Source: a virus. From it: a DNA stretch of 43,085 nt. Where the stretch lies: the IMG/VR virus record IMGVR_UViG_3300006201_000477. The stretch is one strand, 5' to 3'. The stretch's first letter is position 1. Each line of letters opens with the position of its first letter. A model generated the notes under the pieces. The model was not told the DNA's origin. It ran no database searches and worked only from the letters and a program-made list of their open reading frames with translations. Positions 3,611 through 35,837 of the stretch are shown here, one piece after another. The position numbers and the translations under genes were made by a program.

Positions 3611-4258
3611 ATGAAAAAATCTATTTTACTACTTACAACAATTGTGTCTCTTATTCTAGCAGGTTGTTCTTCGCCAGCTTCTACTCCAGTTGACAATTCT
3701 GCAGAACTAAAAAATCTTCAAGCACAATTAAAAACACTTCAGGCAGAAAATGAATCTCTAAAAGCACAACTTAATGAAATATCAGAAACTACACCAGAAG
3801 AAACAGTAGCACCTCAACAGGGGGTTTCCATTTCTGTAGGTGATACTATTTCTACAGATAACATAGAAATAACAATCAATAAAGTAGAATTAACCTATGA
3901 TGTATTGCCTGATGATACTTCTGGCTTTTACACACATTATGCAGCTGATCCAGGAAATGTTTATATCCATTTAGATGTAGATGTAAAAAACCTCGGAAAA
4001 CAAAATTTAAGTTGTGATAGACTTTTATCTGCTACAGCTGATTATAATAATGGTTACACCTATTCCAGTTTTGCAGCCCCGGAAGATGCTACTACTGGAT
4101 TTACATATGCAAATATTTCTTCTATAAAACCTTTAGAAACCCGTGGTATTCACTATATTTTCAAATGTCCACAAGAAGTAGAAGAAAGTACTAGTCCTCT
4201 ATTTATAACTATAGAACCATCTGATTCTAAAGATAATTATATTTTAACAATCCGATAA
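3611..4258 (+). CDS. Lipoprotein, DUF4352-like
   Basis: Signal peptide with a lipobox (LILAGC), a coiled-coil linker, then a beta-rich domain typical of DUF4352. AGGAGG lies upstream. Confidence 0.75.
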   Translation: MKKSILLLTTIVSLILAGCSSPASTPVDNSAELKNLQAQLKTLQAENESLKAQLNEISETTPEETVAPQQGVSISVGDTISTDNIEITINKVELTYDVLPDDTSGFYTHYAADPGNVYIHLDVDVKNLGKQNLSCDRLLSATADYNNGYTYSSFAAPEDATTGFTYANISSIKPLETRGIHYIFKCPQEVEESTSPLFITIEPSDSKDNYILTIR

Positions 4259-4284
4259 TAAGGAACTTTATATGCTTGATTTTT

Positions 4285-4330
4285 TTAAGGAAGCCCAGAA
4301 TTGATATTAAAATCTAACCGGCTTCCTTAA
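4285..4330 (+). terminator. Long-loop hairpin after the lipoprotein gene
   Basis: TTAAGGAAGCC at 4285..4295 pairs with GGCTTCCTTAA at 4320..4330. There is no clear U-tract. Confidence 0.3.
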
Positions 4331-4455
4331 ATGTCTAAAGAATTCTTTATTTTATACAAAATACAAATTAAAATTATAGAAATGTAGAACAACAAAATTC
4401 TATTTGAAAAATCTAACTTATGATAAACCATGATAATTACAAAAGGAAGTGTACT

Positions 4456-5082
4456 ATGGGATTTCATTTTAAAAAAAGTATTAAAATTGCACCTAGTATA
4501 AAATTAAACTCTAATCAATACTCACTAGCACAGAAGAATTTAAAAAATGTCAAAACACCCAAATATCCTTTCCTTATTACTGGAATTATATGCTTCTGGG
4601 TGTGTTTTCTTGTTGCTTGTGGAACAAATAATATGAGTACTAATACTACTTCAACACCTCAAACAACAACTCTTTCTGAAACAGAAACAATAAAAGAGAC
4701 AAATAGTATTCTTACAATGTATACAACTGCTGCCCTCAACGTAAGAAGTGGTCCTGGTACAGATTATTCTATACTGACAACATTACCTACTGGCTCTGCA
4801 GTAAATATTATTGACAAACAAGACGACTGGAGCGAAATAGAATATAATTCCGAATCTGCATATGTTTTTACTAAATATTTATCTGATTCCAACACAGTAG
4901 AAGTTGCCAGTGAAGCCCCATCTGAAACAGAAAAAAGTGCCCCTGTTACAATGGTATGGATACCATATTCCGGTTCAAAATACCATCGTAGGCAATCATG
5001 CAGTGGTATGAAAGGACCCTCTCAAGTATCATTAGAAGAAGCAATTAGAAGAGGATATTCTCCTTGTAAAAAATGTTATTAA
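4456..5082 (+). CDS. Membrane-anchored SH3b-domain protein with DUF4236-like N-terminus and C-terminal Cys/His motif
   Basis: MGFHFKKSIKIAP resembles the DUF4236 start. One TM segment follows. The SH3b-like region is LNVRSGPGTDYSILTTLPTGSAVNI. The C-terminus reads YHRRQSCSGM...SPCKKCY. Confidence 0.65.
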   Translation: MGFHFKKSIKIAPSIKLNSNQYSLAQKNLKNVKTPKYPFLITGIICFWVCFLVACGTNNMSTNTTSTPQTTTLSETETIKETNSILTMYTTAALNVRSGPGTDYSILTTLPTGSAVNIIDKQDDWSEIEYNSESAYVFTKYLSDSNTVEVASEAPSETEKSAPVTMVWIPYSGSKYHRRQSCSGMKGPSQVSLEEAIRRGYSPCKKCY

Positions 5083-5134
5083 CTTTAAAACTATACTCTA
5101 AACTTAGAAAAATAATTAATGAGAAGAGAAAATT

Positions 5135-6106
5135 ATGTATAAAATAGAAGAAAAATTGCTTGAAAAATCTAAGGAAGCGTTTTGCCTCGCAATAGAATTA
5201 TATAACAAGCCAACAATAAAATACCGTTTAGAAGGATTCAGCCATTTTATTTGTAACGCTTGGGAATTAATGTTAAAATCATATATGATAAAACTTTGTG
5301 GTGACAGTAGCATATACTATAAAGATAATCCTCAAAGAACTTTATCATTAGAAAATTGTGTACAAAAAGTATTTACCAATAATAAAGATCCTTTACGAAT
5401 TAATCTGGAAAAAATTATTGAATTACGTAATACAAGTACACATTTCATTACGGAAGAATATGAAATGGTATATATTCCTTTGTTCCAAGCATGTGTGTTT
5501 AACTTTAATGAAAAAATGATGGCATTTCACAACATTGACATGACAAATATTATCCCACAAAACTTTTTAACGTTATCTGTTAGTATGAAAGCTCTTGATG
5601 AAGCTGAAATAATAGCTAAATATCCAGAGCCTATTGCCACTCATTTGATCGATCTCAAAAATTCTGTTGATCATTTATCCATTAATAATAATGCAAAATT
5701 TGCAATAAGAATAGACCATTATCATTACATTACTAAAAACAAAGATAAAGCCACCAATATTGTACATTTTGACAAAAATGCCGACTCTGGCATAACGATT
5801 GTAAAGGAACTTCAAGATCCAAATAATACACATAAATATACTGCTAAATCTTGTATTTCTACTATTAAAGAAAGATTACAGAGAAAACATATTGAACTTA
5901 TATACAATGGAAAATCAACCAAATTTACAAGCTTTCACTTTATCAATTTTTGTAAATACTATCATTTAAAAGAAAATGAAAAACTATGTTATATTCATAA
6001 ACAATTTTCAACTCCACAATATTCATATTCACAGCAAATGATTGATTTTATAATAGATGAAATTATAAAAGATCCTGTAAACATACTGGATAACATAAAA
6101 AAATAA
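5135..6106 (+). CDS. DUF3644-like protein (accessory, possible defence-related)
   Basis: The N-terminus LEKSKEAFCLAIELYNKPTIKYRLEGFSHFICNAWELMLKSYMI resembles the DUF3644 signature. Confidence 0.55.
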   Translation: MYKIEEKLLEKSKEAFCLAIELYNKPTIKYRLEGFSHFICNAWELMLKSYMIKLCGDSSIYYKDNPQRTLSLENCVQKVFTNNKDPLRINLEKIIELRNTSTHFITEEYEMVYIPLFQACVFNFNEKMMAFHNIDMTNIIPQNFLTLSVSMKALDEAEIIAKYPEPIATHLIDLKNSVDHLSINNNAKFAIRIDHYHYITKNKDKATNIVHFDKNADSGITIVKELQDPNNTHKYTAKSCISTIKERLQRKHIELIYNGKSTKFTSFHFINFCKYYHLKENEKLCYIHKQFSTPQYSYSQQMIDFIIDEIIKDPVNILDNIKK

Positions 6107-6319
6107 GCTAACCCCAGGGGCAAAGGATTCTAAGCTTTATAGCCTACTCCTATTCAGGAACCCAGCCTTATCCTTCACGAGCTAACTTATTTATATTATA
6201 ATAATATGCCATATATTTGTCAATATATGTATCAAAATTTATAAATAAAAAGTTACCATGGCAACCCACTTTTTATAATAGAAAATATCGGACTGAAAAA
6301 AAAGAAAAAGGAGGTTCAT

Positions 6320-7795
6320 ATGAAAAATGGTGCCCTATACATTCGCGTCAGCACTCATATGCAGGATGAGCTTTCCCCTGACGCCCAAAAACGGCTCCTT
6401 CTTGATTACGCCAAAGCAAACCATATTATTGTATCTGAAGATTATATCTTTGAAGAAAAAGGGATTTCTGGGAAAAAAGCTGATAAGAGGCCGCAATTCC
6501 AGCAGATGATTGCTCTTGCCAAAACAAAGCCCACTCCCTTTGATATTATTTTAGTATGGAAATTCTCACGCTTTGCCAGGAACCAAGAAGAATCTATTGT
6601 ATATAAATCTTTGTTAAAGAAACAAGGCGTTGAAGTCCTAAGTGTAAGTGAGCCTGTAGCAGAAGGCCCTTTTGGGAGCTTAATTGAACGTATTATTGAA
6701 TGGATGGATGAATATTACTCTATCCGCCTCTCTGGCGAAGTTATGCGGGGCATGACAGAAAAAGCCCTGCGGGGTGGCTATCAGGCAAGCCCGCCACTTG
6801 GATACCGCATGGACATTCCCAAAAAACCACCTGTTATTGTACCTGAAGAAGCTGCTGCCATCCGTTATATTTTTGATGCCTATGCTAACCAGAACAAAGG
6901 AATCTTTGAGATAGCACGCGCTTTAAATGAAATGGGTTATGAAACGCAACGCCACAAACCATTTGAACGCCGTTCTGTAGAATACATACTTCAAAATCCT
7001 ATGTACTGTGGCTTGCTTAGATGGAATAGACATTGTAATGAGACAAATGAGATTAAAGATGAATCTGAATGGATTATCCGAAAAGGGGAACATCAGGCAA
7101 TTATTTCCGAGAATTTATTTAATAAAGCCCAAGAACGTTATTATACTGAATACAAGCCAAAAGGGGCAAGGCCTTCTAGCACTTATAAACATTGGCTATC
7201 TGGCCTTGTAAAATGCCCTGCCTGTGGCCGTACCATGATTGCTAAAGCAGTAAAATCTTCAGGAAGAATCCTATTCTATTTTACTTGTTATGGATATAGT
7301 AAAGGAAAATGTGCCGCCAAAACTTCAGTTGCTGCTACTAAGTTAGAGCCTGCTGTGCTCTCTTCTATCCAAGAAGCCTTCCAGGCAGAAACCTTTTCCT
7401 ATAGCAATCTTATCTCCCCTAGGCAGCCTGAATCTACTTCTGCAGAACAAAAACGTATTAACGATTTAATCCACAGAGTTACTTTTAAGGAACAGCGTGC
7501 CCGTGACGCATATATCAATGGTATTGATACTATGGAAGAATATAAAAAGAACAAGCTTCGGTTACAGGAAGAACGGCAGCGGCTAGAAGAAAAACTTGCC
7601 CTTCTCTCTCCTATTAAGCCGAATCTTTCCCCTTCAGAAGTAAAGCAGCTAATGCAAAAACGCTTGAAAAGTGTCTATGATGTGCTTCTATCTAATGCTG
7701 ATATTCCCACGAAAAACTCTACGCTCAAAAATGTAGTAGAAAAGATTATCTATAATAAAGAAACAGATACGGTAAAGCTCTATTACTATTCTTAA
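6320..7795 (+). CDS. Large serine recombinase (integrase)
   Basis: Resolvase catalytic N-terminus (ALYIRVSTHMQ). A recombinase domain follows, then a Cys zinc ribbon (CPACGR...CYGYSKGKC) and a C-terminal coiled coil. Confidence 0.95.
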   Translation: MKNGALYIRVSTHMQDELSPDAQKRLLLDYAKANHIIVSEDYIFEEKGISGKKADKRPQFQQMIALAKTKPTPFDIILVWKFSRFARNQEESIVYKSLLKKQGVEVLSVSEPVAEGPFGSLIERIIEWMDEYYSIRLSGEVMRGMTEKALRGGYQASPPLGYRMDIPKKPPVIVPEEAAAIRYIFDAYANQNKGIFEIARALNEMGYETQRHKPFERRSVEYILQNPMYCGLLRWNRHCNETNEIKDESEWIIRKGEHQAIISENLFNKAQERYYTEYKPKGARPSSTYKHWLSGLVKCPACGRTMIAKAVKSSGRILFYFTCYGYSKGKCAAKTSVAATKLEPAVLSSIQEAFQAETFSYSNLISPRQPESTSAEQKRINDLIHRVTFKEQRARDAYINGIDTMEEYKKNKLRLQEERQRLEEKLALLSPIKPNLSPSEVKQLMQKRLKSVYDVLLSNADIPTKNSTLKNVVEKIIYNKETDTVKLYYYS

Positions 7796-12135: not shown

Positions 12136-13476
12136 CTAGTTTCCTCCCCCTGCTAATTCTTGTAATTTCTCATATTCTTCTTTCCTCACAATTTCTTTTG
12201 CCTTCTCATACGGCAGAAAACAACCCATTCTTTCTGGCACTCCCTTCTTCCTATAATATGTGTTCCAAAAATATACATTCGCTAATGCCCTTGCCTTATG
12301 CATCCCACAAATAAAAGTTGCCCTTTTATCTGGTGTCCCAAACTTTTGATAATTATATGCGGTGCACCAAGCACAACCATCTGCAACAGGACACAAAAAA
12401 CATTCTTCTGTTGATTGGGATTTTCTTGTAATGCCTTTTAAACAAGAAAGACAATCCTTACACTGCTTCGAAGTACCTATTCCTTCCTCTAAACTTCCAA
12501 TTACCATTGGTTCCTGCTCTGTCCCTAGAGAAGTCTCCATAAAGCGGATACAAGGGTATAGGATTCCATCTGGATCACAAGCAAGCATCCTTCCATTCCC
12601 ACCACACCAGTTTTCATTCTCACTTTCTTGTAATGGTCCAAAACTATTCTCTAAGAAAAGGGAACAATAGGTGCTTTCTACTAAATCCTTTTCGATATAA
12701 TACTTGGCAAGTTTTTTCAACTGCTGGTAAAAGATAGCTGGGTGGACTTGGTTATCCCATACATCTTCAAACACACAGTTCGCATGAATATCCCGAAACC
12801 CTATTTTATGTAAATGGATCATGGATTCATATAAGAATCGAATATTTTCCGGTGAAATGGTAACTTTTGTCCCTGTATTCCCATACTTCCTTAAACTATG
12901 CTTTACCGCTTTTTCTACAAGATCATACGAATGGCTTCCATCTGGAAACCGCCGGCAAGCATCATGCAGCTCTTTATTTCCATCAATCGTAATATTTAAC
13001 GAAGTCCAGTTCCCATACTCTTTCAAGAACTCCTGAAATCGTTTATCAAAATATAAGATCCCATTGGTACAAATCGAAAACCGATGGAACTCTAACCACG
13101 GGTGATGGAAAAGGATCATTCTTTCTGTTACATAATCACAGATTCTTCGGATTAACTCGATCTCCAACAAAGGTTCCCCTCCAATAAACTCGATCACAAT
13201 TCCCCCTGTGTTATCTTGACTGATATACTGGTCCCCTCTTGCTGATAAAAGCTGATCCACAAACTGCTTTGCTGTCTCAAAGGACATGGATTTCTTTTTC
13301 TTATGGGTCTGGTAACAATAACTACACTTCAAATTACAATCATCTGTTACCTTAAAGGTAACGGTCCTTACTGCCCTCCATGTCCCTTCTGCTACCTGCC
13401 CCTTCTTTTCCTCTAAATCAGGAAATAGCTTTGCAATATAATCTGGATAATGAATTGGTCTGTACCTTTTTATCAT
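12136..13476 (-). CDS. Radical SAM / SPASM-domain peptide maturase (anSME-like)
   Basis: CX3CX2C at C47/C51/C54 (CNLKCSYC, nt 13315..13338). C-terminal SPASM-type Cys clusters: CGGNGRMLACDPDGILYPC and CKDCLSC...CFLCPVADGCAWC. Confidence 0.9.
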   Translation of the reverse strand: MIKRYRPIHYPDYIAKLFPDLEEKKGQVAEGTWRAVRTVTFKVTDDCNLKCSYCYQTHKKKKSMSFETAKQFVDQLLSARGDQYISQDNTGGIVIEFIGGEPLLEIELIRRICDYVTERMILFHHPWLEFHRFSICTNGILYFDKRFQEFLKEYGNWTSLNITIDGNKELHDACRRFPDGSHSYDLVEKAVKHSLRKYGNTGTKVTISPENIRFLYESMIHLHKIGFRDIHANCVFEDVWDNQVHPAIFYQQLKKLAKYYIEKDLVESTYCSLFLENSFGPLQESENENWCGGNGRMLACDPDGILYPCIRFMETSLGTEQEPMVIGSLEEGIGTSKQCKDCLSCLKGITRKSQSTEECFLCPVADGCAWCTAYNYQKFGTPDKRATFICGMHKARALANVYFWNTYYRKKGVPERMGCFLPYEKAKEIVRKEEYEKLQELAGGGN

Positions 13477-27689: not shown

Positions 27690-28775
27690 TTATCCACGAG
27701 AAATAATACGGGCAATTGGAATGGCTTTATGGTTGATTGTCTTGTTGTCACCGTTGCTTACCAACGCCCAGTTCCTTCCATTTTTCAATTCCTCATCGGT
27801 AGGGCTATTGGTTTTCTGTGATACTTTCAGATAGGAAATACCAGCCACACTTATCGCATTACGCTTACGAGAAATAAGAGTATCTTCCCCGCCTTTTGTC
27901 TTTGCATCACGTACCATTTCATAAGGAACCTTTGCCCCCACTGGTTCAAAACCAATCGCACCTTCCCCAAGGATATAGGTTGTGTACTTTGTGTAGGAAT
28001 CTGCGGATTCAGAACCTGCAACTACTTCAACAGGCATAGAATCATCCACGATAACCAGTCGCCCATTCCATGTACCCATTTCCAGATCACGTTCGATCCC
28101 TTCTGCATCTGTATATTTCAAATATGCCAGAAGTTTCAAATTCTCAAGGTTCGTGGCAACAGTAGAATGGCAGATCACAAGGCTAAACTTCTGTTTATTG
28201 TCGCCGCAAGCTTTCTGAATTGCCACATTCAGGGAAGTTGCGCCCATATGCTGATCTTCTTCTGTTGCACTATCAGAAATATCATACGTATGCTTATCAA
28301 CAAATTCCGCGTTCGCCGTTTTAATCTTCCCTGTCCCCGTTTCAGACATGGCAAAGATACCTTCCAGGATTGCCAACAAAGTACCCTGGTCTACCTCATT
28401 CCAGTAACGGTTGATCTGGTTTCTGACATTTGCCATAAAATCAACACCCCCGGTCACATCATAAGAGAAATCTGCCTCTGTCCAACCCTTCATACGCCCA
28501 TAAACAAAAACACCTTGTTCAAAAGTATCTGTCCTTTCAGCAGTCAGGTTCGTTTCCCCATCATAGTTCAGGGCATCTCCACCAATTAGCCCAAAAAAGG
28601 GAAGCACAGCATAAACCGTCCCCGTCTGTGAATTGGTGACAAAGGTTTCCCGTAAGCGCTGATCGGAAACAATCGCCCTTGATTCCTTTAATTTGTTTAA
28701 CTTGACATTTGGGACAGCTGACATATATTTCCCAAATGCTTTTTCATTAAAACTTTTTGCATCAAATTTTGCCAT
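27690..28775 (-). CDS. Major capsid protein
   Basis: 361 aa, directly after the scaffold gene. Confidence 0.85.
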   Translation of the reverse strand: MAKFDAKSFNEKAFGKYMSAVPNVKLNKLKESRAIVSDQRLRETFVTNSQTGTVYAVLPFFGLIGGDALNYDGETNLTAERTDTFEQGVFVYGRMKGWTEADFSYDVTGGVDFMANVRNQINRYWNEVDQGTLLAILEGIFAMSETGTGKIKTANAEFVDKHTYDISDSATEEDQHMGATSLNVAIQKACGDNKQKFSLVICHSTVATNLENLKLLAYLKYTDAEGIERDLEMGTWNGRLVIVDDSMPVEVVAGSESADSYTKYTTYILGEGAIGFEPVGAKVPYEMVRDAKTKGGEDTLISRKRNAISVAGISYLKVSQKTNSPTDEELKNGRNWALVSNGDNKTINHKAIPIARIISRG

Positions 28776-28804: not shown

Positions 28805-29401
28805 TTATTCTGCATCAGGGTTATTTTCTATATAAGCAGCCAATTCTTCATAAGACATTTTAGACATATCTACTGTTGTCCCTGGCTTCCTATCCGAAGA
28901 TGCCCCTGGCTGGAATCCTTTAAAATTAGGTTTCGCTTGCTTTTCTGCAAATAAGTAGGAATCTGATTTCTGTAAAGCAGTCAGTTGATCATCCCACCCT
29001 GTCAGTTTTCCATCTTCCCCTAGCTTCACTTTAGAAATATCCAGAAGTGCTTTCACTGCCTTTGTATTCTTTGCCCCTGCTGCCGTTAATGCAGTATCTA
29101 CCGCATTATCCAGCTTTAATTGTGCTAGTTCTGCTTTATGTGCTTTTTCTTGTTCTGCATTTTGCTGCTTCATCGTTTCAATCTGCTTTTTCAATTCTTC
29201 ATTGTCGCCACTTGCCGCTTTCAGATCATCAAGTTGCTTATCTCGATCTGAAACAGACCTTTTTAATGTCTTATTTTCTTCGCTGACTTCCTCATATTTT
29301 GACTTTTCAATATAGTTTCCTAGTTCCTTTAAGGAAGCAGCTTCTGCCTTGGCTGCTAGTTCTTCGGTAATGCCAAGGGCGATAAATTCTTCTTTCTTCA
29401 T
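28805..29401 (-). CDS. Scaffolding protein (GP20-like)
   Basis: ATG at 29401. The protein is charged and coiled-coil rich, with an MKKEEFIALGITEELAAKAEAA start. Confidence 0.7.
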   Translation of the reverse strand: MKKEEFIALGITEELAAKAEAASLKELGNYIEKSKYEEVSEENKTLKRSVSDRDKQLDDLKAASGDNEELKKQIETMKQQNAEQEKAHKAELAQLKLDNAVDTALTAAGAKNTKAVKALLDISKVKLGEDGKLTGWDDQLTALQKSDSYLFAEKQAKPNFKGFQPGASSDRKPGTTVDMSKMSYEELAAYIENNPDAE

Positions 29402-29406
29402 TTTTC

Positions 29407-29682
29407 CTAATCCTTTCCTTTTAATGATATACAACAATTTTCAAATTTCTTATAGGCGTCAAGATACAATTCCTCTTTATCACCATTTAATGTCAACTCA
29501 TAATACATACCATCTGGTAACGTTGTACTAACAAGGGCTTTCCAATTTTGAAGTGTTTTACAATACCATACTACAAATACATCATCTGTTGTAATCTGCT
29601 TTCCATCCGTTTTGTCCAAATGTTTGTTCGAATAATCTTTTACAACGTCTTTTACCAACTCCAAAAACTTTTTTTCTGTCAT
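29407..29682 (-). CDS. Hypothetical small protein (DUF6275-like)
   Basis: An internal ATG at 29682 with an upstream AAAGGA is preferred over the track start. Confidence 0.4.
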   Translation of the reverse strand: MTEKKFLELVKDVVKDYSNKHLDKTDGKQITTDDVFVVWYCKTLQNWKALVSTTLPDGMYYELTLNGDKEELYLDAYKKFENCCISLKGKD

Positions 29683-29819: not shown

Positions 29820-29887
29820 ACTATCCCCCTTTCCTGAAAATAGGCATGAAAAAAGCACCCTTGAACGTTTTTTCAAAAGTGCTTATC

Positions 29888-30292
29888 CTATATACCTGCC
29901 ATTTCTGATAGTTTCCTCTTCTGCTCCTCTATGGCATACAACTCAAATTCCCATTCTCCTGCCGGATTAATCTCTATAAGGGAAATGTTATGAAAGTAGA
30001 ATCTTTCCACAATTCCGTCATTTCGCAGAAAGTCAGAAGCCAATTCATACCTCTCCGTTTTCTGCATGGTTTCTTCCACAAGGCTACTAGTAAATTCCAT
30101 ATCCCTACACAAGACAATGGTAAAGTGTATAGATTTCTCCTTGTAACCATGTTCCCCTAGAACTGGAACTTGTGTTGATCTCTCATAAATACTGATTTTG
30201 GGCTTACAATGAGCAAAAACCACCCTCCGCCCCTGCCCTATGGCAAATAATTCACCCTTCTCGCTGAAAAGTGTATTTAATAATATTGTCAT
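29888..30292 (-). CDS. Hypothetical protein
   Basis: 134-aa ORF between the MuF region and the scaffold gene. Confidence 0.5.
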   Translation of the reverse strand: MTILLNTLFSEKGELFAIGQGRRVVFAHCKPKISIYERSTQVPVLGEHGYKEKSIHFTIVLCRDMEFTSSLVEETMQKTERYELASDFLRNDGIVERFYFHNISLIEINPAGEWEFELYAIEEQKRKLSEMAGI

Positions 30293-30390
30293 TTTTGCTC
30301 CTTTTCTTGCTGGACATATTCTTTACAATGAAAGTTCAATAAAACTACCTTAACCATTATCTAAAGCCAGTAGGCTTATGAACAATGCAC

Positions 30391-30630
30391 TCAATCATAC
30401 CAATCATCACCTTCTTCAGCTCCTAACAATTCGTCAACCGTCTTACCCGCCTGAATACATTCTTCTAAAATCTCACACCATTCATCTTCCGTAAATCCTC
30501 CTGGCTCTGTAGGTGGAAAATCATTAAACCTACTTTCATAAGTATGTATTAGTTTAACAAACCTTGATGGCTCTCTTTCCTTTTCATTAGTTATTCTTCT
30601 TAAAAACTTTGGAATCTGATCTTCTGTCAT
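30391..30630 (-). CDS. Small acidic protein, candidate immunity partner of the MuF C-terminal domain
   Basis: 79 aa. Its ATG overlaps the MuF stop (ATGA). Confidence 0.45.
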   Translation of the reverse strand: MTEDQIPKFLRRITNEKEREPSRFVKLIHTYESRFNDFPPTEPGGFTEDEWCEILEECIQAGKTVDELLGAEEGDDWYD

Positions 30631-32375
30631 TTCATTTCACCTATCACCTTCAAAAATTCTTCATAAGCATTTGGAAATATTTCTTTAATAGATTCTAGTT
30701 TTATAATATTACCTGTAGCAGAAGCACTAAAGAAATGCGCAAATGCCTCACTTCCAATTATTTCATCTGATTTCCAGTACTCCCTTTTATGTCCATACCT
30801 ACCTTTACATTTTCCTTCTGATAGTGCATCAAATAAATCAGAAAAAATATGACTTTCTTCATCAGTCGCTTTTTCAAGAAAATTCGATAATTCTTTATAT
30901 GCTTCTTTCACATTAATATTATAGTACTTTGCATAACCAGTTGTAAACACTGAAAAATCATTTTTTAAAGCATTTATAAAAGCCGTCTGTTCAGACGGTT
31001 GTCCATATATCTTATCAATGTTATGTCCCATTTCGTGAAATAAGGTTGTCCATTGTCCACGACTATCAGAAAAATCTTTTTTTAAATTTATAAATATCCC
31101 ATTTTGTGGAGAATATCTTGCTTTTCCCATAGCATTTATCTTCGCAAAAACAATCCTATCTTGATTTTCCAAAATTACTTTTTGAAATGGCAAAGAAGCC
31201 GAATTAATCACTTGCATGATAGAATCTTTGTATTTAGATTCCAAGTCTTGCAACTTAACGGGTGACTTATTTCGCGTTAATACATCAGAAGCATTTTTCA
31301 TTTTGGAAATTACTTTTTTTGCATCAGCTTCATTTTCAACAAAGGCTTTTTTCCACTCCTTATAGTTCATATCTGCTGGCACATAATAAGTCTTTCTATC
31401 CTCACCCCTTGCTGCCCTTTCCCCTACCTGTTCAAAGTTTTCATCAAAATATGGAACTGTTGTACTCCTGCAATATACATGAAAAGGCGGCGCTGTTACC
31501 CCTGCTTCAAAGTCTTTCATAAGAAACACTTTCCCGTCCATTTCCCGGCAAATATCGGACGTATGGGAATCCAGCGTTGCCACAATCTCATACTGCTCCA
31601 CATCTAGGTCATGGAAGCAGTCCTTTTGTGCTGCTGAACTGAAATAAGCTTCTTCTGTCATAACCAGCCGCCCTGCATTGTACTTAGATGTGTTCATTTT
31701 TTTCGCTATGGCATCAATCGCTTTCTGTGGGTCCTGTCCTAGTATAATATTTTGGGTTAGTTCCTTATGTACTTCTGAAATCAGCTTTTCCTTGTTATTC
31801 CAAATTCGTTCGGAGAAATTCTTTCCATCTACTGCCCAAGGCTTACGAATCACCTTTTCAACCTGCTTCTGATCTACCCCTACTATATCCCACCCTATCC
31901 CAAATCCCTTTTGAAGCTCATAGGCAGTATGATAATAACCATCTAAATAAATCCGCTTCATGGTAGAATCAATGGTATCCAACTGGTTCCCAAACAAAAC
32001 TTCCAAGCTCTGCTGTGTCTGTAGTTTTAAAGCTTCCAAACGTGTTATATGAAACTTAGCAGAAGCATTTTCCAATTCTTTCATCCATTTATTATTGATC
32101 CCATTTTCTTTCCCATACTTGATATAATCATCAACATCCCACTGAAACTCCTTTAATGTTTTTCCTGAAAGCATTTTCCGGGCTTCTGCCATGCTCACTC
32201 CATTATTGGCTGCAAACCGTTGATACCATGTGTTAATCTTCCCTTCAATTTCTTTTTGTGCCTGCCTGTATATGTTCTCCATTTCCTGATAGGCAGCCGC
32301 CCCTTTTTGATTTTGCGCTGCTTCCAGTTGTCCAAAACGCTGTTTCCAGTAATCACTATTTTTCACTAGGAACAC
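30627..32375 (-). CDS. MuF/SPP1 gp7-like minor head protein fused to a C-terminal HExxH metallopeptidase-like domain
   Basis: MuF core: DSHTSDICREMDGKVF...PPFHVYCRSTT. A C-terminal extension of about 235 aa follows, carrying HEMGH (nt 31023..31037) and a downstream GSEAFAHFF. Confidence 0.8.
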   Translation of the reverse strand: MFLVKNSDYWKQRFGQLEAAQNQKGAAAYQEMENIYRQAQKEIEGKINTWYQRFAANNGVSMAEARKMLSGKTLKEFQWDVDDYIKYGKENGINNKWMKELENASAKFHITRLEALKLQTQQSLEVLFGNQLDTIDSTMKRIYLDGYYHTAYELQKGFGIGWDIVGVDQKQVEKVIRKPWAVDGKNFSERIWNNKEKLISEVHKELTQNIILGQDPQKAIDAIAKKMNTSKYNAGRLVMTEEAYFSSAAQKDCFHDLDVEQYEIVATLDSHTSDICREMDGKVFLMKDFEAGVTAPPFHVYCRSTTVPYFDENFEQVGERAARGEDRKTYYVPADMNYKEWKKAFVENEADAKKVISKMKNASDVLTRNKSPVKLQDLESKYKDSIMQVINSASLPFQKVILENQDRIVFAKINAMGKARYSPQNGIFINLKKDFSDSRGQWTTLFHEMGHNIDKIYGQPSEQTAFINALKNDFSVFTTGYAKYYNINVKEAYKELSNFLEKATDEESHIFSDLFDALSEGKCKGRYGHKREYWKSDEIIGSEAFAHFFSASATGNIIKLESIKEIFPNAYEEFLKVIGEMK

Positions 32376-32441
32376 CGCCTTTCAGGAAGCAGGAGGCAAG
32401 CAGGTAATAAATACAAATCTGTCTGGTTGTCCATTGTAACA

Positions 32442-34004
32442 TTAAACTTCTTTCCCCTCGCTATCTGAACCACCTTCTTTCTTTATGGGGACTTTCCCTT
32501 GTTGCTTACCTGCCTTTTCCTGTTGTTCTGTCTGGAAAGGGTTATATCCCTGTTGTTCAAATTCTTCTTGTTCCTTCTCCTGCTGCTTTTCCAACCGTTC
32601 CAGTTCCCTTTTTGGATCATCAATCCAAGGGTGCTGCCCTATAATCGTTTCATCAGATAAAATTCCTACTGATTTCTGGCAATTTTCGATTACCTCTGTT
32701 TCGTTGATTAATATATCTCTATTAAAAATAATCTCTATTTTTTCTTTTTCGAATTCCCCTTGTCCCATATTAGCGAAATGGACATTTACAAACCAAAGAA
32801 TTTCTTCAAAAGCTGCCTGGAACTCTGTTTCCATTTCATTGGCATCTAAATCAATATCAGAATACATAGACTGAATATTCATCTGGTTCGGATTTCCAGA
32901 AAGCCTATCATCTTTTGCATCATATCCCATTGCATTTTCAATAAGGGCCTTTTTAAATATCTCTAAAATGGATTTATAGTTCTCTGCATTAACAGTAATT
33001 TCAAGAGTCTCTACCCCTCCTTTGGTATCTCCATCATATCGGACTTTTACTGCCCCAAATGTGGCAAGATTACGCCTAAATTCTCCTAAATCTGTACCAT
33101 CATAGTTTTTTATCACAAGGATTGTGTTCCTAGAATCTTCCTGCATTATGTTTTCAAAATCAGATAACATCATATTAATTCCATCTTGAAGTGTTTTTAC
33201 TTTTTTAATTAATGGAATCTCTTGTTCATTACACTTTAATGGAATCAGTGGTATTTTCTCCCAGTTTAATCCTATCGCTATTCCTTCTTTATCCATCACT
33301 GTTACATAAGAAGATTCATATTCTTCTTCCTCTGTACTTATATCAGGAACTAGCCTGCTGCCTTCTAAGTAAAATCTATGGATTCCTTGCAAATCATAAA
33401 TTTCTACCTTCTCATAGATTTTTGGAGTTATTCCTTCATATCCCTCCACCAAATACAGACGAACTGCAAAATCAAGGATCGTATGTTCACTATCTTTCCA
33501 AAAGGGAAGGATTTCATATCCTGGGAATAAGCGAAAATCTAATTTCCCCATCTCGTTATAGTACGGATACAGCCAAGCAATCCCTGCATTTAAAGCAGCT
33601 TTTCCCCCGTTTTTTAAGGTTTTCATAAAACGTTTCCCAAACACTTCTTTTAAAAGTTCCACATATTGGGTATTTTCTCCTTCTACCACAAAAGGCTGCC
33701 CTAGCAAATAATTGGCTTTCTGATTTACCATTTTTGCATATTGATTATCAATCAACCGGTTATTCGGCAAATTTTCTACTATTTCCAATTTTCCGCCTTC
33801 CCCTATCATGGTTCTTTTCCGAGCCAAAATATCATGTTCATTTTCATAATACAAATATCCCTTTATTTGTAAAAGCCGCTGAGGACTGTTTTTCCATCTG
33901 GCAATTTCTCTTTCCAGAAATTCCTTGTCACTCATGCGGCTTCTTGCCCCTTGTTTGATTAGGTTGTTTACTTTTGTTGTAAGAAAATCAACAAAATCTA
34001 ACAT
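32442..34004 (-). CDS. Portal protein (SPP1 gp6-like)
   Basis: 520 aa, between terL and MuF, with an acidic C-terminal tail. Confidence 0.85.
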   Translation of the reverse strand: MLDFVDFLTTKVNNLIKQGARSRMSDKEFLEREIARWKNSPQRLLQIKGYLYYENEHDILARKRTMIGEGGKLEIVENLPNNRLIDNQYAKMVNQKANYLLGQPFVVEGENTQYVELLKEVFGKRFMKTLKNGGKAALNAGIAWLYPYYNEMGKLDFRLFPGYEILPFWKDSEHTILDFAVRLYLVEGYEGITPKIYEKVEIYDLQGIHRFYLEGSRLVPDISTEEEEYESSYVTVMDKEGIAIGLNWEKIPLIPLKCNEQEIPLIKKVKTLQDGINMMLSDFENIMQEDSRNTILVIKNYDGTDLGEFRRNLATFGAVKVRYDGDTKGGVETLEITVNAENYKSILEIFKKALIENAMGYDAKDDRLSGNPNQMNIQSMYSDIDLDANEMETEFQAAFEEILWFVNVHFANMGQGEFEKEKIEIIFNRDILINETEVIENCQKSVGILSDETIIGQHPWIDDPKRELERLEKQQEKEQEEFEQQGYNPFQTEQQEKAGKQQGKVPIKKEGGSDSEGKEV

Positions 34005-34052: not shown

Positions 34053-34783
34053 TTAATCAAAACTAAAGGCATCTGGCAGCAGAATCCTAGTGACGCCATA
34101 CCGCATAGAATCCATTCCATGTGAAAATTCATGATCTGGCTTATCGGTCAATTTTCCATCTCTATCTTTACCCCAACAATAATTATTAATCTCTTTTTTA
34201 AACTCTGTGCATTTTGGATGTACTACAATTTGATAATTCTGGATAAGCTGTATCCCATGATTTACACTATCCTTCCCTTTCCTAGAAGGCTCTGCCCGAA
34301 TTCCTTCTTCCTGTAATTCCGCTATACTCTTTGGTTCTGCACAATCACAGATAATCCTCTGCCCACCATATCCCATTTTCTTTATCTGTTCTGCAATCAT
34401 CTTATTCGTAACACCTGTTCGATACCATTCGTCAAATATGTATATCCGCATAGCAGCATTATCTACCACTTCACAAACAAACGCATTTGGGTCCGTAAAA
34501 CCAAAATCTAAGTTAAAGGCTGACTTAATCCCATTACGCCTGCGGATTTCCTCTATATCGAATTCTTCTTCCACTACATTGGTATAAATAAGTCCTTCTG
34601 CAATTCCCCATTCCCCTTCTCCTTCTATACGGTAGCGGCGTGGGTTATTCTTTTTCATCTTTAAGAAAATATTCTGATCTGCCTCATCTAACCATTCATT
34701 ACATTCCCATGTTGTAGTTTTTACGAAAACATCTTCCTCTGGCACATCAAAAAAACGAGCCTTTAACCAGCTCGTTGCACTCC
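34053..34783 (-). CDS. terL: Terminase large subunit, exon 2 (nuclease domain)
   Basis: The frame is open upstream of the track start. It reads (W)SATSWLKARFFDVPEEDVFVKTTTWECNEWL and continues into the nuclease domain. Confidence 0.75.
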
Positions 34784-35302
34784 CAAATATGTTCGCATAA
34801 CTTCGCTACAGTCATGCCGCCTTTTCGGCCGCTGCTGCTTTCACAACAGTTCAGACTATATCACAATCCTATAAAGGATTCTCCCTGTTTCGTGACGCTT
34901 GCCACTACTCTACTAATCCAAAAGAACGTTAATCGTGCTCTTTTGGCTTTCGATAGTCGTTGCACCTTTCAAAATGCTTTCCGCAAAACATAAAACTATC
35001 CCCGTTTCTCAATCGATTAGAAATCTGTTGTTGTGTCATTCCGTAAAATTCAGCACAATGGTTGAACCAACATAAATAACATCTCCTGTTTTCTTTACAC
35101 GGAAAAGATAAATAAAATATGGTTTTGCTTCCATTGGCAATATCTCCTTCTTATAGTACATATAATTTATACTATAATCAATTTATATTATCAATGTTAT
35201 TTGCACCTGACTTGGCTCATGATTGCCCTCGTCTTTACGTTAGGGTTTCCCATGAATTAAAGGAGTTTTCTGTATCAATCACCCAATACAGCCGCAAAAT
35301 TT
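34784..35302 (-). mobile_element. Group I-like self-splicing intron interrupting terL
   Basis: 519 nt lie between the two terL halves, with stops in the terL frame. The 5' exon ends in U, and CCGU can pair with the intron GCGG (U-G at the splice site). The intron ends in G. Joining the exons recreates TFNP-W-SATSW. Confidence 0.6.
34929..35134 (-). pseudogene. Decayed GIY-YIG-type homing endonuclease ORF within the intron
   Basis: AAGGAGA precedes the ATG at 35134. It encodes MEAKPYFIYLFRVKKTGDVIYVGSTIVLNFTE, then a stop. A shifted frame continues EFYGMTQQQISNRLRNGDSFMFCGKHFER. Confidence 0.4.
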
Positions 35303-35837
35303 ACGGATTAAATGTTAAAGTTATTTGCTTGAAATATCCCTCTGGCACTTCACCACGGATTGACATATCCAGCTTATTGAAATCATCTTCATTTGTAATT
35401 TCATAGGCTTCCTCGATCCACACAAAACATAACACGCCCTTATCAACCGAAATAGAAGTGATTTTCAATCCATCGTCTAATCCACGAAATAGAATTTTTT
35501 GCCCAGTATCAACCCTAGTAATCTGCATAGGGGACACCGTACACTCAAAATATGCGTCAAGCCCTAATCGATGAATGGCCCATTTTAGATCACTATACAC
35601 AGAATCTCGTAATGTATTTGAATAACGCCTAACGCATAATCCATTGCTTTGTGGATATTTGAACAACCGAACAATCATGTTCAACGCAGTTGTTTTACTT
35701 TTCTTTGAACCCCTGGAACCTTTACAAACACGGTATCGTTTCTTTGTGTGCCAAAAGTCTTTATAACCTCTCCCGACAATCGCTGGAAGGTTTATTCGAA
35801 ACGCCTCACTATTCCTCAATATCTGTCTCCCCTTCAA
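35303..35837 (-). CDS. terL: Terminase large subunit, exon 1 (ATPase domain)
   Basis: Walker A GSRGSKKSKT and Walker B-like CFVWIEEA. It ends ...ITLTFNP. The start is non-ATG: TTG at 35837, or TTG at 35819 with GGGGAG upstream. Confidence 0.8.

What the first reader, a model, noticed from the sequence alone, without database searches (positions are those of the whole stretch)
30391..31340. MuF head protein carrying a C-terminal HExxH metallopeptidase-like domain, with an overlapping small acidic ORF (toxin/immunity-like pair)
The canonical MuF/gp7 domain ends around ...YYVPADMNYKEWKKAF. The protein then continues for about 235 aa. This extension contains HEMGH (31023..31037) and, about 85 residues later, GSEAFAHFF. 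HExxH plus a distal Glu is a gluzincin-like arrangement, reminiscent of lethal-factor-type peptidases.

Temperate Firmicute phages are known to encode MuF proteins with polymorphic C-terminal toxin domains followed by immunity genes. Here a 79-aa acidic ORF overlaps the stop codon (ATGA). Three more small ORFs, including a 42-aa zinc ribbon, separate it from the scaffold gene.
Basis: partly seen in the sequence, partly recalled or inferred. Interest (0 to 1): 0.65.

Follow-up and report, generated by a model that had tools for sequence, protein, structure and literature searches.

The report
Phage head protein with protease cargo
A temperate phage's minor head protein ends in a swappable zinc-protease domain that always travels with a small acidic partner gene, so it is most likely an untested toxin and antidote pair of the known "MuF" phage toxin kind.

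Summary
A 582-aa MuF/SPP1-gp7 gene (30627..32375, minus strand) sits between the portal and scaffold genes. Its last ~237 residues form a confidently folded domain (AF2 pLDDT 95.5) with HEMGH. A 79-aa acidic ORF overlaps its stop codon by ATGA.

The domain matches no Pfam or NCBIfam model, but it is a large family: 1,885 50%-identity clusters. H, E, H, D (SDLF) and Y (YW) are invariant, and H (GH) and E (EAFAHFF) are nearly so. Its nearest solved relatives are anthrax lethal factor and Pro-Pro endopeptidases (M34), and only marginally.

Close MuF relatives (~80% identical N-terminal region) carry other zincins, ADP-ribosyltransferase-like, CdiA-tRNase or glutamine-deamidase domains after the same Y(K/Q)EWK junction. 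DNA similarity to a sister phage stops at residue 348 and resumes two bases before the next gene. The exchanged unit is therefore exactly this domain plus ORF79.

An ORF79-family gene follows the domain in 41 of 46 loci, including a non-phage polymorphic-toxin-like locus. It also occurs as an orphan beside toxin remnants.

Verdict: an uncharacterised MuF polymorphic toxin/effector with its cognate inhibitor. This is a new member of a known kind. Toxicity, binding and packaging are untested.

The parts
30627..32375 (-). MuF/SPP1-gp7-type minor head protein gene, 582 aa, immediately downstream of the portal gene (32442..34004)
   Evidence: ORF list; Pfam PF04233 E=5e-16; TIGR01641 E=9e-24; phrog_115 'minor head protein' covers residues 5-578
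31332..32375 (-). Constant N-terminal region (residues 1-348), shared at ~80% protein identity with relatives that carry other C-terminal domains
   Evidence: blastn against L007 gives 79.5% identity over 32404..31332, then stops; hit list and C-terminal sequences
31341..31367 (-). Junction motif NYKEWKKAF (residues 337-345), after which relatives diverge into unrelated C-terminal domains
30295..31331 (-). Variable cassette: C-terminal domain plus ORF79 plus 98 nt intergenic. It has no DNA similarity to sister phage L007, while both flanks are 76-80% identical
   Evidence: blastn. The same pattern is seen in L003 vs L006: 98% identity, then unrelated sequence, then 96% identity
30630..31340 (-). 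C-terminal zincin-like domain (residues 346-582). The catalytic core is about residues 400-582. The first ~55 residues are conserved only in capsid-linked members
   Evidence: AF2 pLDDT 95.5, pTM 0.92; 1,885 family representatives; profile hit to lethal factor
31023..31037 (-). HEMGH (H447, E448, H451): predicted zinc ligands and catalytic base, lying in helix 98-111 of the domain model
   Evidence: invariant in alignments A2, A3 and A7; DSSP; coordinates checked
31014..31016 (-). D454, three residues after the motif (HExxHxxD), as in lethal factor HEFGHAVDD and in a phage-type MPTase clade described by Iyer et al. 2017
   Evidence: invariant in A7; aligned to lethal factor; PMC5512222
30831..30842 (-). 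SDLF motif (S512-F515). D513 is invariant; its role is unknown
30774..30791 (-). H529 ... Y533-W534 (GHxxxYW). The invariant Tyr lies 10 residues before the Glu. It is inferred to correspond to LF Tyr728 / PPEP-1 Tyr178, which lie 7 residues before their Glu (spacing from my own knowledge of M34)
   Evidence: conservation; the analogy to M34 is inference
30729..30749 (-). EAFAHFF (E543...): predicted third zinc ligand, in helix 192-209 of the domain model
   Evidence: E is invariant in A7 and nearly invariant in A2; DSSP
30391..30630 (-). ORF79: 79-aa acidic protein (pI 4.33), start overlapping the MuF stop (ATGA). Candidate cognate inhibitor / immunity protein
   Evidence: family present directly downstream of the domain in 41/46 loci; Mantel r=0.75 with the domain; dN/dS 0.22-0.42
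30918..30947 (-). Sigma-70-like site TTTACA-18 nt-TATAAT (11/12) inside the domain coding sequence, ~290 nt upstream of ORF79. Possible independent promoter for ORF79; weak evidence
   Evidence: the number of sites in the region is not above chance; hexamers kept in 6 of 7 relatives but they coincide with conserved F-T and Y-N codons

Best explanation
The locus is a MuF-type polymorphic toxin/effector with its cognate inhibitor.

**Domain roles.** The N-terminal ~345 residues are the capsid-targeting MuF/gp7 domain. By analogy with SPP1 gp7, this domain binds the portal, is packaged in a few copies and leaves the head with the DNA. The last ~237 residues are a zinc endopeptidase of the zincin superfamily. 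H447 and H451 plus E543 would bind zinc, E448 would be the catalytic base, and Y533 would help catalysis. The domain is distantly lethal-factor/PPEP-like.

**ORF79.** It is translated from the same late transcript by coupling (ATGA overlap). It is a small acidic protein that binds the peptidase and blocks it in the producing cell, and it protects cells that carry the gene.

**Cassette.** The peptidase domain and ORF79 form one recombination cassette. It is exchanged between MuF backbones at the conserved Y(K/Q)EWK junction, and it is shared with non-phage toxin delivery systems.

**Shown here:**
- domain anatomy;
- conservation of the catalytic residues;
- cassette boundaries;
- linkage and co-divergence of the domain and ORF79.

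**Inferred:**
- peptidase activity;
- the substrate, which is unknown;
- physical inhibition by ORF79;
- packaging and ejection.
For: **The domain is a conserved zincin.**
- The AF2 model has pLDDT 95.5. It shows three strands (64-83), then the HExxH helix (98-111), then a later helix carrying the Glu (192-209), which is the zincin core.
- H, E, H, D and Y are invariant, and H and E nearly so, across 100 diverse members.
- HExxH is present in all full-length representatives.
- In the clean profile search of solved structures the hits, apart from one unrelated protein, are lethal factor (E=0.006, aligned over strands plus HExGHxxDD) and PPEP-1/Zmp1 (E=0.15).
- The Foldseek top list is almost entirely M34 enzymes.

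**The locus is polymorphic.** After the same junction, close MuF relatives carry:
- PF18451 (CdiA tRNase-type; P0073) or PF15644 (glutamine-deamidase-type; P0127);
- ADP-ribosyltransferase-like domains;
- several other zincins.

**The cassette boundaries are exact.**
- Similarity between the window and L007 stops at residue 348 and resumes 2 nt before ORF134.
- L003 and L006 are 98% and 96% identical on either side of an unrelated domain plus small ORF.

**ORF79 is the linked partner.**
- An ORF79-family ORF lies -17 to +26 nt from the stop in 41/46 loci. This includes 20 of 21 viral loci that were not used to build the model.
- Its divergence tracks the domain (Mantel r=0.75, p=2e-4) and not the N-domain (Spearman 0.28).
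- Cassette dS between the window and L001 is 0.5, against 2.7 for the N-domain. dN/dS is 0.2-0.4 against 0.06.

**The same pair occurs outside phage heads.**
- In L020, two adjacent coding regions begin with the same helical N-domain. One continues into an ADP-ribosyltransferase (two ORFs, probably one disrupted gene). The other ends in this domain followed by an ORF79 homologue.
- The domain is also fused to RTX (4) and LXG (1) proteins.

**Orphan copies exist.**
- Intact ORF79 genes sit beside 44-aa toxin remnants (L045, L046).
- L011 has an extra ORF79 copy.

**Precedent.** MuF toxins Apk2 and Bxa are neutralised by adjacent small proteins (PMC11699363, PMC12226406). Jamet et al. report metallopeptidases in 20% of MuF toxins and a small downstream ORF in 89% (PMC5576092).
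Against: - No activity, toxicity, binding or packaging data exist for any member.
- Similarity to M34 is marginal: Foldseek E about 1 and TM 0.41, and Pfam ATLF is not reached.
- The ORF79 model is poor (pLDDT 68).
- ORF79 lies in the late operon. Whether it is expressed in lysogens, as classic immunity requires, is unknown; only a weak promoter-like site supports it.
- Jamet et al. themselves expect peptidase MuF cargo to be only mildly toxic.
- Relatives at 29-34% identity (L021-L023) have different downstream genes, so ORF79 is not universal for the wider family.
Confidence: 0.7

Rival explanations
1. The molecules and inhibitor are the same, but the purpose differs. The capsid-delivered peptidase would serve the phage at the start of infection. 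It would cleave a host defence, repressor or physiology protein, as proposed for polyvalent proteins and for 'low-toxicity' MuF cargo, rather than acting as an interbacterial toxin. ORF79 would only protect the producing cell and phage assembly.
For: - ORF79 is translationally coupled inside the late head operon, which fits protection of the producer.
- Iyer et al. 2017 predict that MuF-fused enzymes are injected effectors, and they describe a phage-type MPTase clade with HExxHxxD.
- Jamet et al. propose a lysis-lysogeny role for peptidase cargo.
- The domain is fused to two capsid-targeting families, Phage_Mu_F (27/100) and Phage_min_cap2 (18/100).
Against: - Orphan ORF79 genes next to toxin remnants, and extra ORF79 copies, point to selection for immunity on its own.
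- The same pair occurs in a non-phage toxin-like locus, and the domain is fused to LXG and RTX proteins.
- The domain is interchangeable with classic antibacterial toxin domains.
Confidence: 0.2
2. The zincin is a cis-acting processing or maturation peptidase. It would trim MuF, the scaffold or other head proteins during assembly. ORF79 would be an assembly factor or timing inhibitor, with no role as an effector.
For: - Iyer et al. 2017 propose autoprocessing roles for many MPTase domains in virion proteins.
- This head module has a scaffold protein but no recognisable prohead protease between the portal and capsid genes.
Against: - Nearly identical phages (L003 vs L006, 96-98% flanks) replace the domain with an unrelated non-peptidase domain.
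- Close relatives carry ADP-ribosyltransferase-like, tRNase or deamidase domains instead, so the domain cannot be required for head assembly.
- The pair also occurs outside phages.
Confidence: 0.06
3. ORF79 is merely a neighbouring small phage gene, or a chaperone/packaging adaptor, without inhibitor function. Alternatively, the domain is a catalytically dead structural module.
For: - No known immunity or inhibitor family matches ORF79.
- The ORF79 model has low confidence.
Against: - ORF79 is swapped together with the domain and co-diverges with it.
- It is retained with the domain in a non-phage locus and as orphans.
- All catalytic residues are invariant across about 1,900 clusters, which argues against a dead domain.
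Confidence: 0.04

Closest known systems
MuF polymorphic toxins of temperate phages (Jamet et al. 2017; characterised members Apk2 (p)ppApp synthetases and Bxa ADP-ribosyltransferase)
   Same: - N-terminal MuF domain.
- Gene directly after the portal gene in a temperate phage.
- Variable C-terminal enzymatic domain.
- Small ORF immediately downstream.
- C-terminal domain shared with other toxin delivery families.
   Different: - The C-terminal domain here is a zincin matched by no curated model. In Jamet's scheme it would count as 'extension without known domain'.
- No metallopeptidase MuF toxin has been characterised.
- ORF79 belongs to no described immunity family.
Peptidase family M34: anthrax lethal factor catalytic domain and Pro-Pro endopeptidases PPEP-1/Zmp1, PPEP-2, PPEP-3 (Pfam ATLF, PF07737)
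   Same: - HExGHxxD(D) on the active-site helix, preceded by a three-stranded sheet.
- A Tyr followed by a Glu-containing (E)(A/F)FA(E/H)xF helix near the C-terminus.
- Best hits by both sequence profile and fold among solved structures.
   Different: - The similarity is marginal: E=0.006, Foldseek E about 1, TM 0.41.
- The Pfam gathering score is not reached.
- Tyr-Glu spacing is 10 rather than 7.
- A ~75-residue helical insert carries an invariant SD(L)F motif and a GH motif not known in M34.
- The context is intracellular, capsid-borne and paired with an inhibitor.
Tox-ALFMPTase and Tox-MPTase1-5 toxin domains of polymorphic toxin systems (Zhang et al. 2012)
   Same: Zincin toxin domains at the C-terminus of polymorphic toxins, exchanged by recombination, sometimes with immunity genes.
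   Different: - Those are reported for PVC, T2SS, T6SS and T7SS delivery (Table in PMC3482391), not MuF.
- The listed immunity for ALF-MPTase is Imm-SuFu, not an ORF79-like protein.
- No Tox-MPTase family was among the Pfam matches.
Zincin-like MPTase domains of phage and plasmid polyvalent proteins (Iyer et al. 2017; Pfam MPTase-PolyVal PF18818)
   Same: - Virion-associated zincins.
- One phage clade is described with an Asp three residues after HExxH.
- One family member here is the C-terminus of a 2,005-aa protein with three HExxH motifs (P0236).
   Different: - Only 4 of 30 family members give sub-threshold PF18818 hits.
- The proposed role there is mainly self-processing.
- No dedicated small partner gene is described.
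Bacillus phage SPP1 gp7 and phage Mu gpF (founding MuF proteins)
   Same: Homologous N-terminal domain and position after the portal gene. The basis for inferring packaging and ejection with DNA.
   Different: SPP1 gp7 has no enzymatic extension. Mu F carries a different C-terminal domain (MuF-C/PBECR RNase-like, per Iyer et al. 2017).

Membership tests
MuF polymorphic toxin system (Jamet et al. 2017) | N-terminal MuF-superfamily domain | tested here: met
   PF04233 E=5e-16, above the cut-off; TIGR01641 E=9e-24
MuF polymorphic toxin system (Jamet et al. 2017) | Gene immediately downstream of the portal gene in the head/packaging module of a temperate phage | tested here: met
   Portal (SPP1_portal) at 32442..34004, scaffold at 28805..29437, capsid at 27690..28775; serine recombinase at 6320..7795
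MuF polymorphic toxin system (Jamet et al. 2017) | C-terminal extension that varies among close homologues of the N-terminal domain | tested here: met
   Relatives with 75-84% identical N-regions carry PF18451, PF15644, ADP-ribosyltransferase-like and several zincin domains. DNA break at residue 348
MuF polymorphic toxin system (Jamet et al. 2017) | Small ORF (<150 aa) immediately downstream that changes together with the toxin domain | tested here: met
   ORF79 overlaps the stop codon. 41/46 loci have a family member. Different small ORFs follow different domains
MuF polymorphic toxin system (Jamet et al. 2017) | Toxin domain shared with other polymorphic toxin families | tested here: met
   Domain fused to RTX (4) and LXG (1) proteins. 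In L020 it is fused to a helical N-domain shared with an adjacent ART coding region, with an ORF79 homologue downstream
MuF polymorphic toxin system (Jamet et al. 2017) | C-terminal domain is toxic and is neutralised by the downstream protein | not testable with these tools
   Needs expression assays.
Zincin (HExxH...E, gluzincin-type) metallopeptidase superfamily | HExxH on a helix that follows a small beta-sheet | tested here: met
   Strands 64-67, 75-77 and 81-83, then helix 98-111 containing H102-E103-x-x-H106 of the domain; invariant
Zincin (HExxH...E, gluzincin-type) metallopeptidase superfamily | Third zinc ligand (Glu) on a later helix, positioned at the metal site | tested here: inconclusive
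   E543 is invariant or nearly so and lies in helix 192-209.
Zincin (HExxH...E, gluzincin-type) metallopeptidase superfamily | Zinc-dependent peptide-bond hydrolysis | not testable with these tools
   Biochemical assay needed
Peptidase M34 / Pfam ATLF (PF07737) | Match to the family model at its gathering score | tested here: not met
   The window domain gives no ATLF hit even at E<=10. 8 of 30 family members give sub-threshold hits, best E=0.0085
Peptidase M34 / Pfam ATLF (PF07737) | Significant sequence-profile or fold similarity to LF or PPEP structures | tested here: inconclusive
   Profile vs PDB: LF E=0.006 and PPEP-1 E=0.15, with only one unrelated protein among the other hits. Foldseek: M34 enzymes fill the top ranks but E is 0.9-5 and TM about 0.4
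MPTase-PolyVal (PF18818) | Match to the family model | tested here: not met
   No hit for the window domain. 4 of 30 members are sub-threshold, best E=0.007
MuF C-terminal modules in the Pfam library | Match to any MuF-associated C-terminal domain model | tested here: not met
   No such family among the Pfam hits for the full protein or for the extension
Known immunity/inhibitor families (Pfam Imm families, solved inhibitors) | ORF79 matches a described family by sequence or fold | tested here: not met
   No Pfam, PHROG or NCBIfam hit. No recurrent Pfam family among 23 members. No PDB hit by profile or by fold with a low-confidence model

The most novel reading that the evidence does not exclude
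The domain and ORF79 define a large toxin-antidote family that no curated library holds. It is a lethal-factor-like intracellular zinc endopeptidase delivered by at least three routes: phage capsids via MuF or min_cap2, T7SS-like helical leaders, and RTX/T1SS. Its small acidic inhibitor may cap the catalytic zinc through its invariant cysteine (Cys58) or its conserved acidic C-terminal tail ending in Tyr, in a cysteine-switch-like way. In the phage, the injected protease would cleave a specific host protein at the moment of DNA entry.
Probability: 0.2. Interest if true: 0.7.

Novelty: new member of a known kind. Interest (0 to 1): 0.45.

Why it matters
MuF toxins are a widespread class of phage-borne effectors that is almost untested. 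Only a (p)ppApp synthetase (Apk2) and an ADP-ribosyltransferase (Bxa) have been characterised. About two thirds of MuF C-terminal extensions were left as "unknown domain" in the founding survey (toxin domains were identified in 34% of them).

This locus assigns a catalytic type (zincin, LF/PPEP-like) and a cognate partner to one large unknown class. That class has about 1,900 clusters at 50% identity, mostly in gut Clostridia prophages. The comparison also gives clean natural swap controls.

If the protease is active, it would be the first protease cargo shown to ride in a phage head. Its substrate would show what phages, or lysogens, gain by cutting a host protein at entry. The small inhibitor family would be a new protease-inhibitor scaffold.

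Tried and rejected
- **Curated libraries on the extension.** Pfam and NCBIfam gave no family. The only weak hits (Peptidase_M3 at E=0.007, a KH domain and Csm1_N) look spurious.
- **phmmer of the extension against PDB.** Only a spurious designed-repeat hit.
- **megablast of the region against deposited phages.** Nothing. tblastn found only Streptococcus phage Javan351 and one fecal contig at 26-28% identity.
- **hhalign against the 'classic' LF-like domains.** These domains sit on sister MuF proteins. Only the HExxH helix aligned (14 columns, 72% probability). The two zincin types are therefore not close relatives.
- **ORF79 alone.** The AF2 model has pLDDT 68 with three helices. Foldseek and profile searches gave nothing meaningful.
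- **Supplementary tables of Jamet et al.** They were truncated in the library, so I could not tell which metallopeptidase models they had scored.
- **Head-maturation protease reading.** Rejected, because the domain is replaced by non-peptidase domains in nearly identical phages.
- **ORF134, zinc ribbon and DUF6275 as part of the module.** Rejected. They are conserved next to a different cassette in L007.
Full report
**1. The observation**

The genes of this window run on the minus strand. A 582-aa ORF (30627..32375, GTG start) lies between an SPP1-type portal gene (32442..34004) and the scaffold (28805..29437) and major capsid (27690..28775) genes.

- It carries Pfam Phage_Mu_F at residues 201-306 (E=5e-16) and TIGR01641 phageSPP1_gp7 (E=9e-24).
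- The sequence ...NYKEWKKAF ends at residue 345, and 237 residues follow.
- HEMGH is at residues 447-451 (31023..31037). GSEAFAHFF starts at residue 541. That is 94 residues later, not about 85.
- A 79-aa ORF (30391..30630) starts with an ATG that overlaps the MuF TGA (ATGA) and has an AGGTGA ribosome-binding site. It is acidic: pI 4.33, net charge -12.
- ORF134, a 42-aa zinc ribbon and a DUF6275 protein follow before the scaffold gene.

A chance HExxH is expected 0.017 times in this protein.

**2. What the C-terminal domain is**

No curated library recognises it. Pfam gives only a weak Peptidase_M3 hit (E=0.007), and NCBIfam and a single-sequence PDB search give nothing. PHROG families of minor head proteins do cover the whole length (phrog_115, residues 5-578), so the extension is common among phage proteins.

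An exhaustive HMMER search with an eight-sequence profile found 1,885 representatives of 50%-identity clusters at E<=1e-3, and 791 at E<=1e-10.

- All full-length representatives among the best 147 have HExxH.
- In an alignment of 100 diverse members, the invariant positions are H, E, H of the motif, the D of SD(L)F and the Y of YW. The G of HExGH, the D three residues after the motif, the H of GH and the E of EAFAHFF are nearly invariant. A cleaner 30-sequence domain alignment gives the same picture.

AlphaFold2 with a 41-sequence alignment gives a very confident model (pLDDT 95.5, pTM 0.92). It has three short strands (domain residues 64-83), then a helix (98-111) carrying HEMGH. A helical insert follows. 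A later helix (192-209) carries the conserved Glu. This is the zincin core as described in the literature (PMC5512222). I could not measure the metal-site geometry because model coordinates are not exposed.

Evidence on the nearest known relatives:

- Foldseek against the PDB puts anthrax lethal factor and the Pro-Pro endopeptidases PPEP-1/Zmp1, PPEP-2 and PPEP-3 (all peptidase family M34) in nearly all top ranks. The scores are not significant (E 0.9-5, TM about 0.4).
- A domain-only profile against all PDB sequences returns, apart from one unrelated protein (HP0721), only lethal factor (E=0.006) and PPEP-1 (E=0.15). The lethal factor alignment runs through the strands and HEvGHliDD / HEFGHAVDD.
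- Single members give sub-threshold Pfam hits to ATLF (8 of 30), Peptidase_M91 (5) and MPTase-PolyVal (4).
- Against predicted viral structures, the best matches are 'minor capsid proteins' of uncultured siphoviruses (E=4e-8, TM 0.75).

My reading: this is a distinct, uncurated zincin family whose nearest solved relatives are M34 enzymes. It is not a member of PF07737 as defined. The Tyr ten residues before the Glu resembles the catalytic Tyr of LF and PPEP-1, which lies seven residues before their Glu. That comparison is inference from my knowledge of M34.

**3. The locus is polymorphic and the cassette is exactly domain plus ORF79**

Among the 120 best full-length matches, many share 75-84% identity with the window protein over the first ~60-78% of its length. 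They then diverge after the conserved Y(K/Q)EWK..FV junction. Their C-termini include:

- PF18451 (CdiA tRNase-type; P0073) and PF15644 (glutamine-deamidase-type; P0127);
- ADP-ribosyltransferase-like domains (P0100, P0116; PF03496 at E=2e-4);
- several other HExxH domains. Some have the classical HEFGH...ELFAEAF pattern and weakly hit ATLF (E=4e-4).

A profile-profile comparison shows that those classical domains align with the window family only over the HExxH helix. Several different zincins therefore ride on this MuF scaffold.

DNA comparison fixes the boundaries:

| Comparison | Upstream flank | Unrelated segment | Downstream flank |
|---|---|---|---|
| Window vs sister phage L007 (different domain, 50-aa downstream ORF) | 79.5% identity over 32404..31332, ending at residue 348 | 31331..30295 | 76.5% identity from 30294 (two bases before the ORF134 start) to 27026 |
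| L003 vs L006 | 98.2% identity up to MuF residue ~361 | L003: C-terminal domain plus its small ORF; L006: the corresponding, ~500 nt longer segment | 96.4% identity from 6 nt after the L003 small ORF |

ORF134, the zinc ribbon and DUF6275 are present next to the foreign cassette in L007. They are backbone genes and not part of the module.

**4. ORF79 is the domain's constant partner**

I collected loci in three ways: by exact-protein look-up, from species-representative genomes and from IMG/VR. I then scanned all their ORFs with HMMs of the domain and of the ORF79 family.

- Of 46 loci with the domain, 41 have an ORF79-family ORF starting between -17 and +26 nt from the stop codon.
- Among the 21 viral loci with a full-length domain, which were not used to build the ORF79 model, 20 have it. 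The exception, L042, has a similar 70-aa acidic ORF overlapping the stop by 4 nt.
- The family alignment shows an invariant Cys. It also shows a conserved N-terminal IPxFL(R/K), Y..F, TEP and (E)W..ILExC(I) motifs, and an acidic tail usually ending in Tyr.
- Nearly all members are acidic.
- ORF79 divergence follows the domain (Mantel r=0.75, p=2e-4; Spearman 0.66). It follows the MuF N-domain only weakly (Spearman 0.28).
- dN/dS is 0.22-0.42 for ORF79 and 0.24-0.34 for the domain, against 0.06 for the N-domain.
- Between the window and L001, the cassette's dS (0.5) is far lower than that of the N-domain (2.7). That indicates recent transfer of the cassette between diverged backbones.

**5. The same pair outside phage heads, and orphans**

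Among 100 diverse members, the N-terminal partners are Phage_Mu_F (27), Phage_min_cap2 (18), RTX repeats (4) and LXG (1). The rest have no Pfam match in the N-terminal part.

In the Lachnospiraceae contig L020, a 99-aa helical-domain ORF is followed by an ADP-ribosyltransferase ORF (PF03496, E=1.5e-28). These are probably one disrupted gene. Next comes a 374-aa protein with the same helical N-domain. That N-domain gives weak, sub-threshold hits to T7SS EspC/EspB-type families. After it come a Gly-rich linker and this zincin domain. An 80-aa ORF79 homologue follows 25 nt downstream.

Two IMG/VR prophages (L045, L046) carry, next to their holin and endolysin genes, a 44-aa remnant of the domain's C-terminus followed by an intact ORF79-family gene. 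L047 keeps only the remnant. L011 has, after its own pair, a fragment resembling the PF15644-type domain of P0127 and a second ORF79-family gene. Orphan immunity genes beside toxin remnants are typical of polymorphic toxin loci. They are hard to explain if ORF79 were only an assembly factor.

More distant members (29-34% identity; ~325-aa chromosomal proteins with a helical leader, L021-L023) have other downstream genes, including a predicted lipoprotein. ORF79 therefore belongs to the capsid-linked and closely related branch, not to the whole family.

**6. How it most likely works**

Shown here:
- the architecture;
- the conservation of the catalytic residues;
- the cassette boundaries;
- the linkage and co-divergence of the domain and ORF79.

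Inferred steps:
- MuF-zincin and ORF79 are made together from the late operon, by translational coupling through the ATGA overlap.
- ORF79 binds and blocks the peptidase. The immunity proteins of the two characterised MuF toxins are reported or modelled to act at the toxin active site (PMC11699363, PMC12226406).
- The MuF domain takes the protein into the procapsid in a few copies and it leaves with the DNA. This rests on SPP1 gp7 knowledge as summarised in PMC12226406 and PMC5512222.
- In a cell without ORF79, the zincin cleaves an unknown cytoplasmic substrate.

Whether the benefit is interbacterial competition or help for the incoming phage cannot be decided from sequence. I keep the second as the main rival (0.2). 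A role in head maturation is excluded by the natural swaps.

A sigma-70-like site (TTTACA-18-TATAAT) lies inside the domain coding region, about 290 nt upstream of ORF79. It could allow expression in lysogens. However, sites of this kind are not enriched in the region, and its conservation coincides with conserved F-T and Y-N codons.

**7. Comparison with what is known, and novelty**

The system meets all sequence-testable criteria of the MuF polymorphic toxin family (PMC5576092).

- That paper reports metallopeptidase domains in 20% of recognised MuF toxins and a small downstream ORF in 89%.
- Zhang et al. list an anthrax-lethal-factor-like toxin domain, but for PVC and T2SS delivery and with Imm-SuFu immunity (PMC3482391).
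- Per a 2024 paper, Apk2 was until then the only characterised MuF toxin, and that paper adds Bxa.
- A full-text search found no paper combining MuF, metalloprotease, immunity protein and prophage.
- In deposited phage genomes, the best match is the Streptococcus phage Javan351 'putative head morphogenesis protein' (domain HMM E=6e-27). It has an unannotated 85-aa ORF 2 nt downstream.

I therefore file the finding as a new member of a known kind. The kind is known. The particular toxin-domain family and its partner family are uncurated and untested.

**8. Verdict**

- Confidence is 0.7 that this is a capsid-targeted zinc peptidase effector with a cognate inhibitor.
- Interest is 0.45.

Noticed in passing
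window 34053..35837 (-), intron match 34832..35312: The large terminase gene is split. The N part is 35301..35837 (Terminase_3 profile positions 1-137). The C part is 34053..34745 (profile positions 160-201 plus Terminase_3C). About 555 bp without a long ORF lie between them. A full-length match to the group I intron model RF00028 lies there (39.8 bits, below the gathering score of 50; E=1.7e-8). In relative L007 the same gene is interrupted by an HNH/NUMOD4 endonuclease gene.
   Followed up: partly
L045 2980..3368; L046 802..1190; L047 2980..3114: Next to the holin and endolysin genes of other prophages lies a 44-aa remnant of the zincin domain's C-terminus. It is followed by an intact 79-aa ORF79-family gene. 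L047 has the remnant only. This looks like an orphan immunity module.
   Followed up: partly
L011 4659..5675: After the domain plus ORF79 pair comes a 112-aa fragment resembling the PF15644-type domain of P0127. An 81-aa ORF and a second ORF79-family gene (5430..5675) follow. This looks like an array of displaced toxin and immunity modules.
   Followed up: partly
L020 1659..4272: A non-phage Lachnospiraceae locus. Two adjacent coding regions share a ~100-aa helical N-domain with weak T7SS EspC/EspB-like hits. One ends in an ADP-ribosyltransferase (split into two ORFs). The other ends in the zincin domain followed by an ORF79 homologue.
   Followed up: partly
L021 1691..3725; L022; L023 600..2062: Chromosomal ~325-aa proteins with a helical leader and a distant copy of the domain (29-34% identity). 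They are followed by unrelated genes: a 197-aa ORF plus a 152-aa ORF, or a 160-aa ORF. The 152-aa and 160-aa ORFs have a lipoprotein-like N-terminus. This suggests a different immunity type, and perhaps an extracytoplasmic target, in that branch.
   Followed up: no
window 30918..30947 (-): A near-consensus sigma-70-like site (TTTACA-18-TATAAT) lies inside the toxin-domain coding sequence, upstream of ORF79. The hexamers are kept in 6 of 7 diverged relatives (TTGACA in L008). They coincide with conserved Phe-Thr and Tyr-Asn codons, so the conservation may only reflect the protein.
   Followed up: partly
window 29853..29884 (-): A terminator-like hairpin (13-pair stem followed by a T run) lies directly after ORF134 (29888..30292), in the middle of the head operon. 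ORF134 has no family match but is conserved in L007.
   Followed up: no
window 12136..13476 (-): A 446-aa radical SAM / 4Fe-4S protein is encoded within the late (tail/lysis-side) region of the phage.
   Followed up: no
window 3611..7795 (+): Next to the serine recombinase (6320..7795) lies a DUF3644 plus EC042_2821 restriction-endonuclease-like protein (5135..6106). Two other proteins sit there as well: an SH3-domain protein (4420..5082) and a DUF4352-like protein (3611..4258). This is possibly a lysogeny-expressed accessory or defence region.
   Followed up: no
L031 1975..3914: In one IMG/VR contig the MuF-zincin gene is broken into 425-aa and 136-aa pieces. The ORF79 reading frame is fused to the last residues of the domain. 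This is either a decaying toxin gene with a retained partner or an assembly error.
   Followed up: no
L048 (Streptococcus phage Javan351, MK448737.1 18952..20981): This deposited S. oralis prophage carries the same domain family on its 'putative head morphogenesis protein' (HMM E=6e-27: HEFGHQID ... SDILGAL ... YSHSLVYW ... ESEFFAHVFEA). An unannotated 85-aa ORF lies 2 nt downstream. The ORF79 model does not detect it.
   Followed up: partly
protein P0236 (2,005 aa): A 2,005-aa protein with three HExxH motifs ends in this domain (residues 1771-2000). That suggests the domain is also used in giant polyvalent-type proteins.
   Followed up: no
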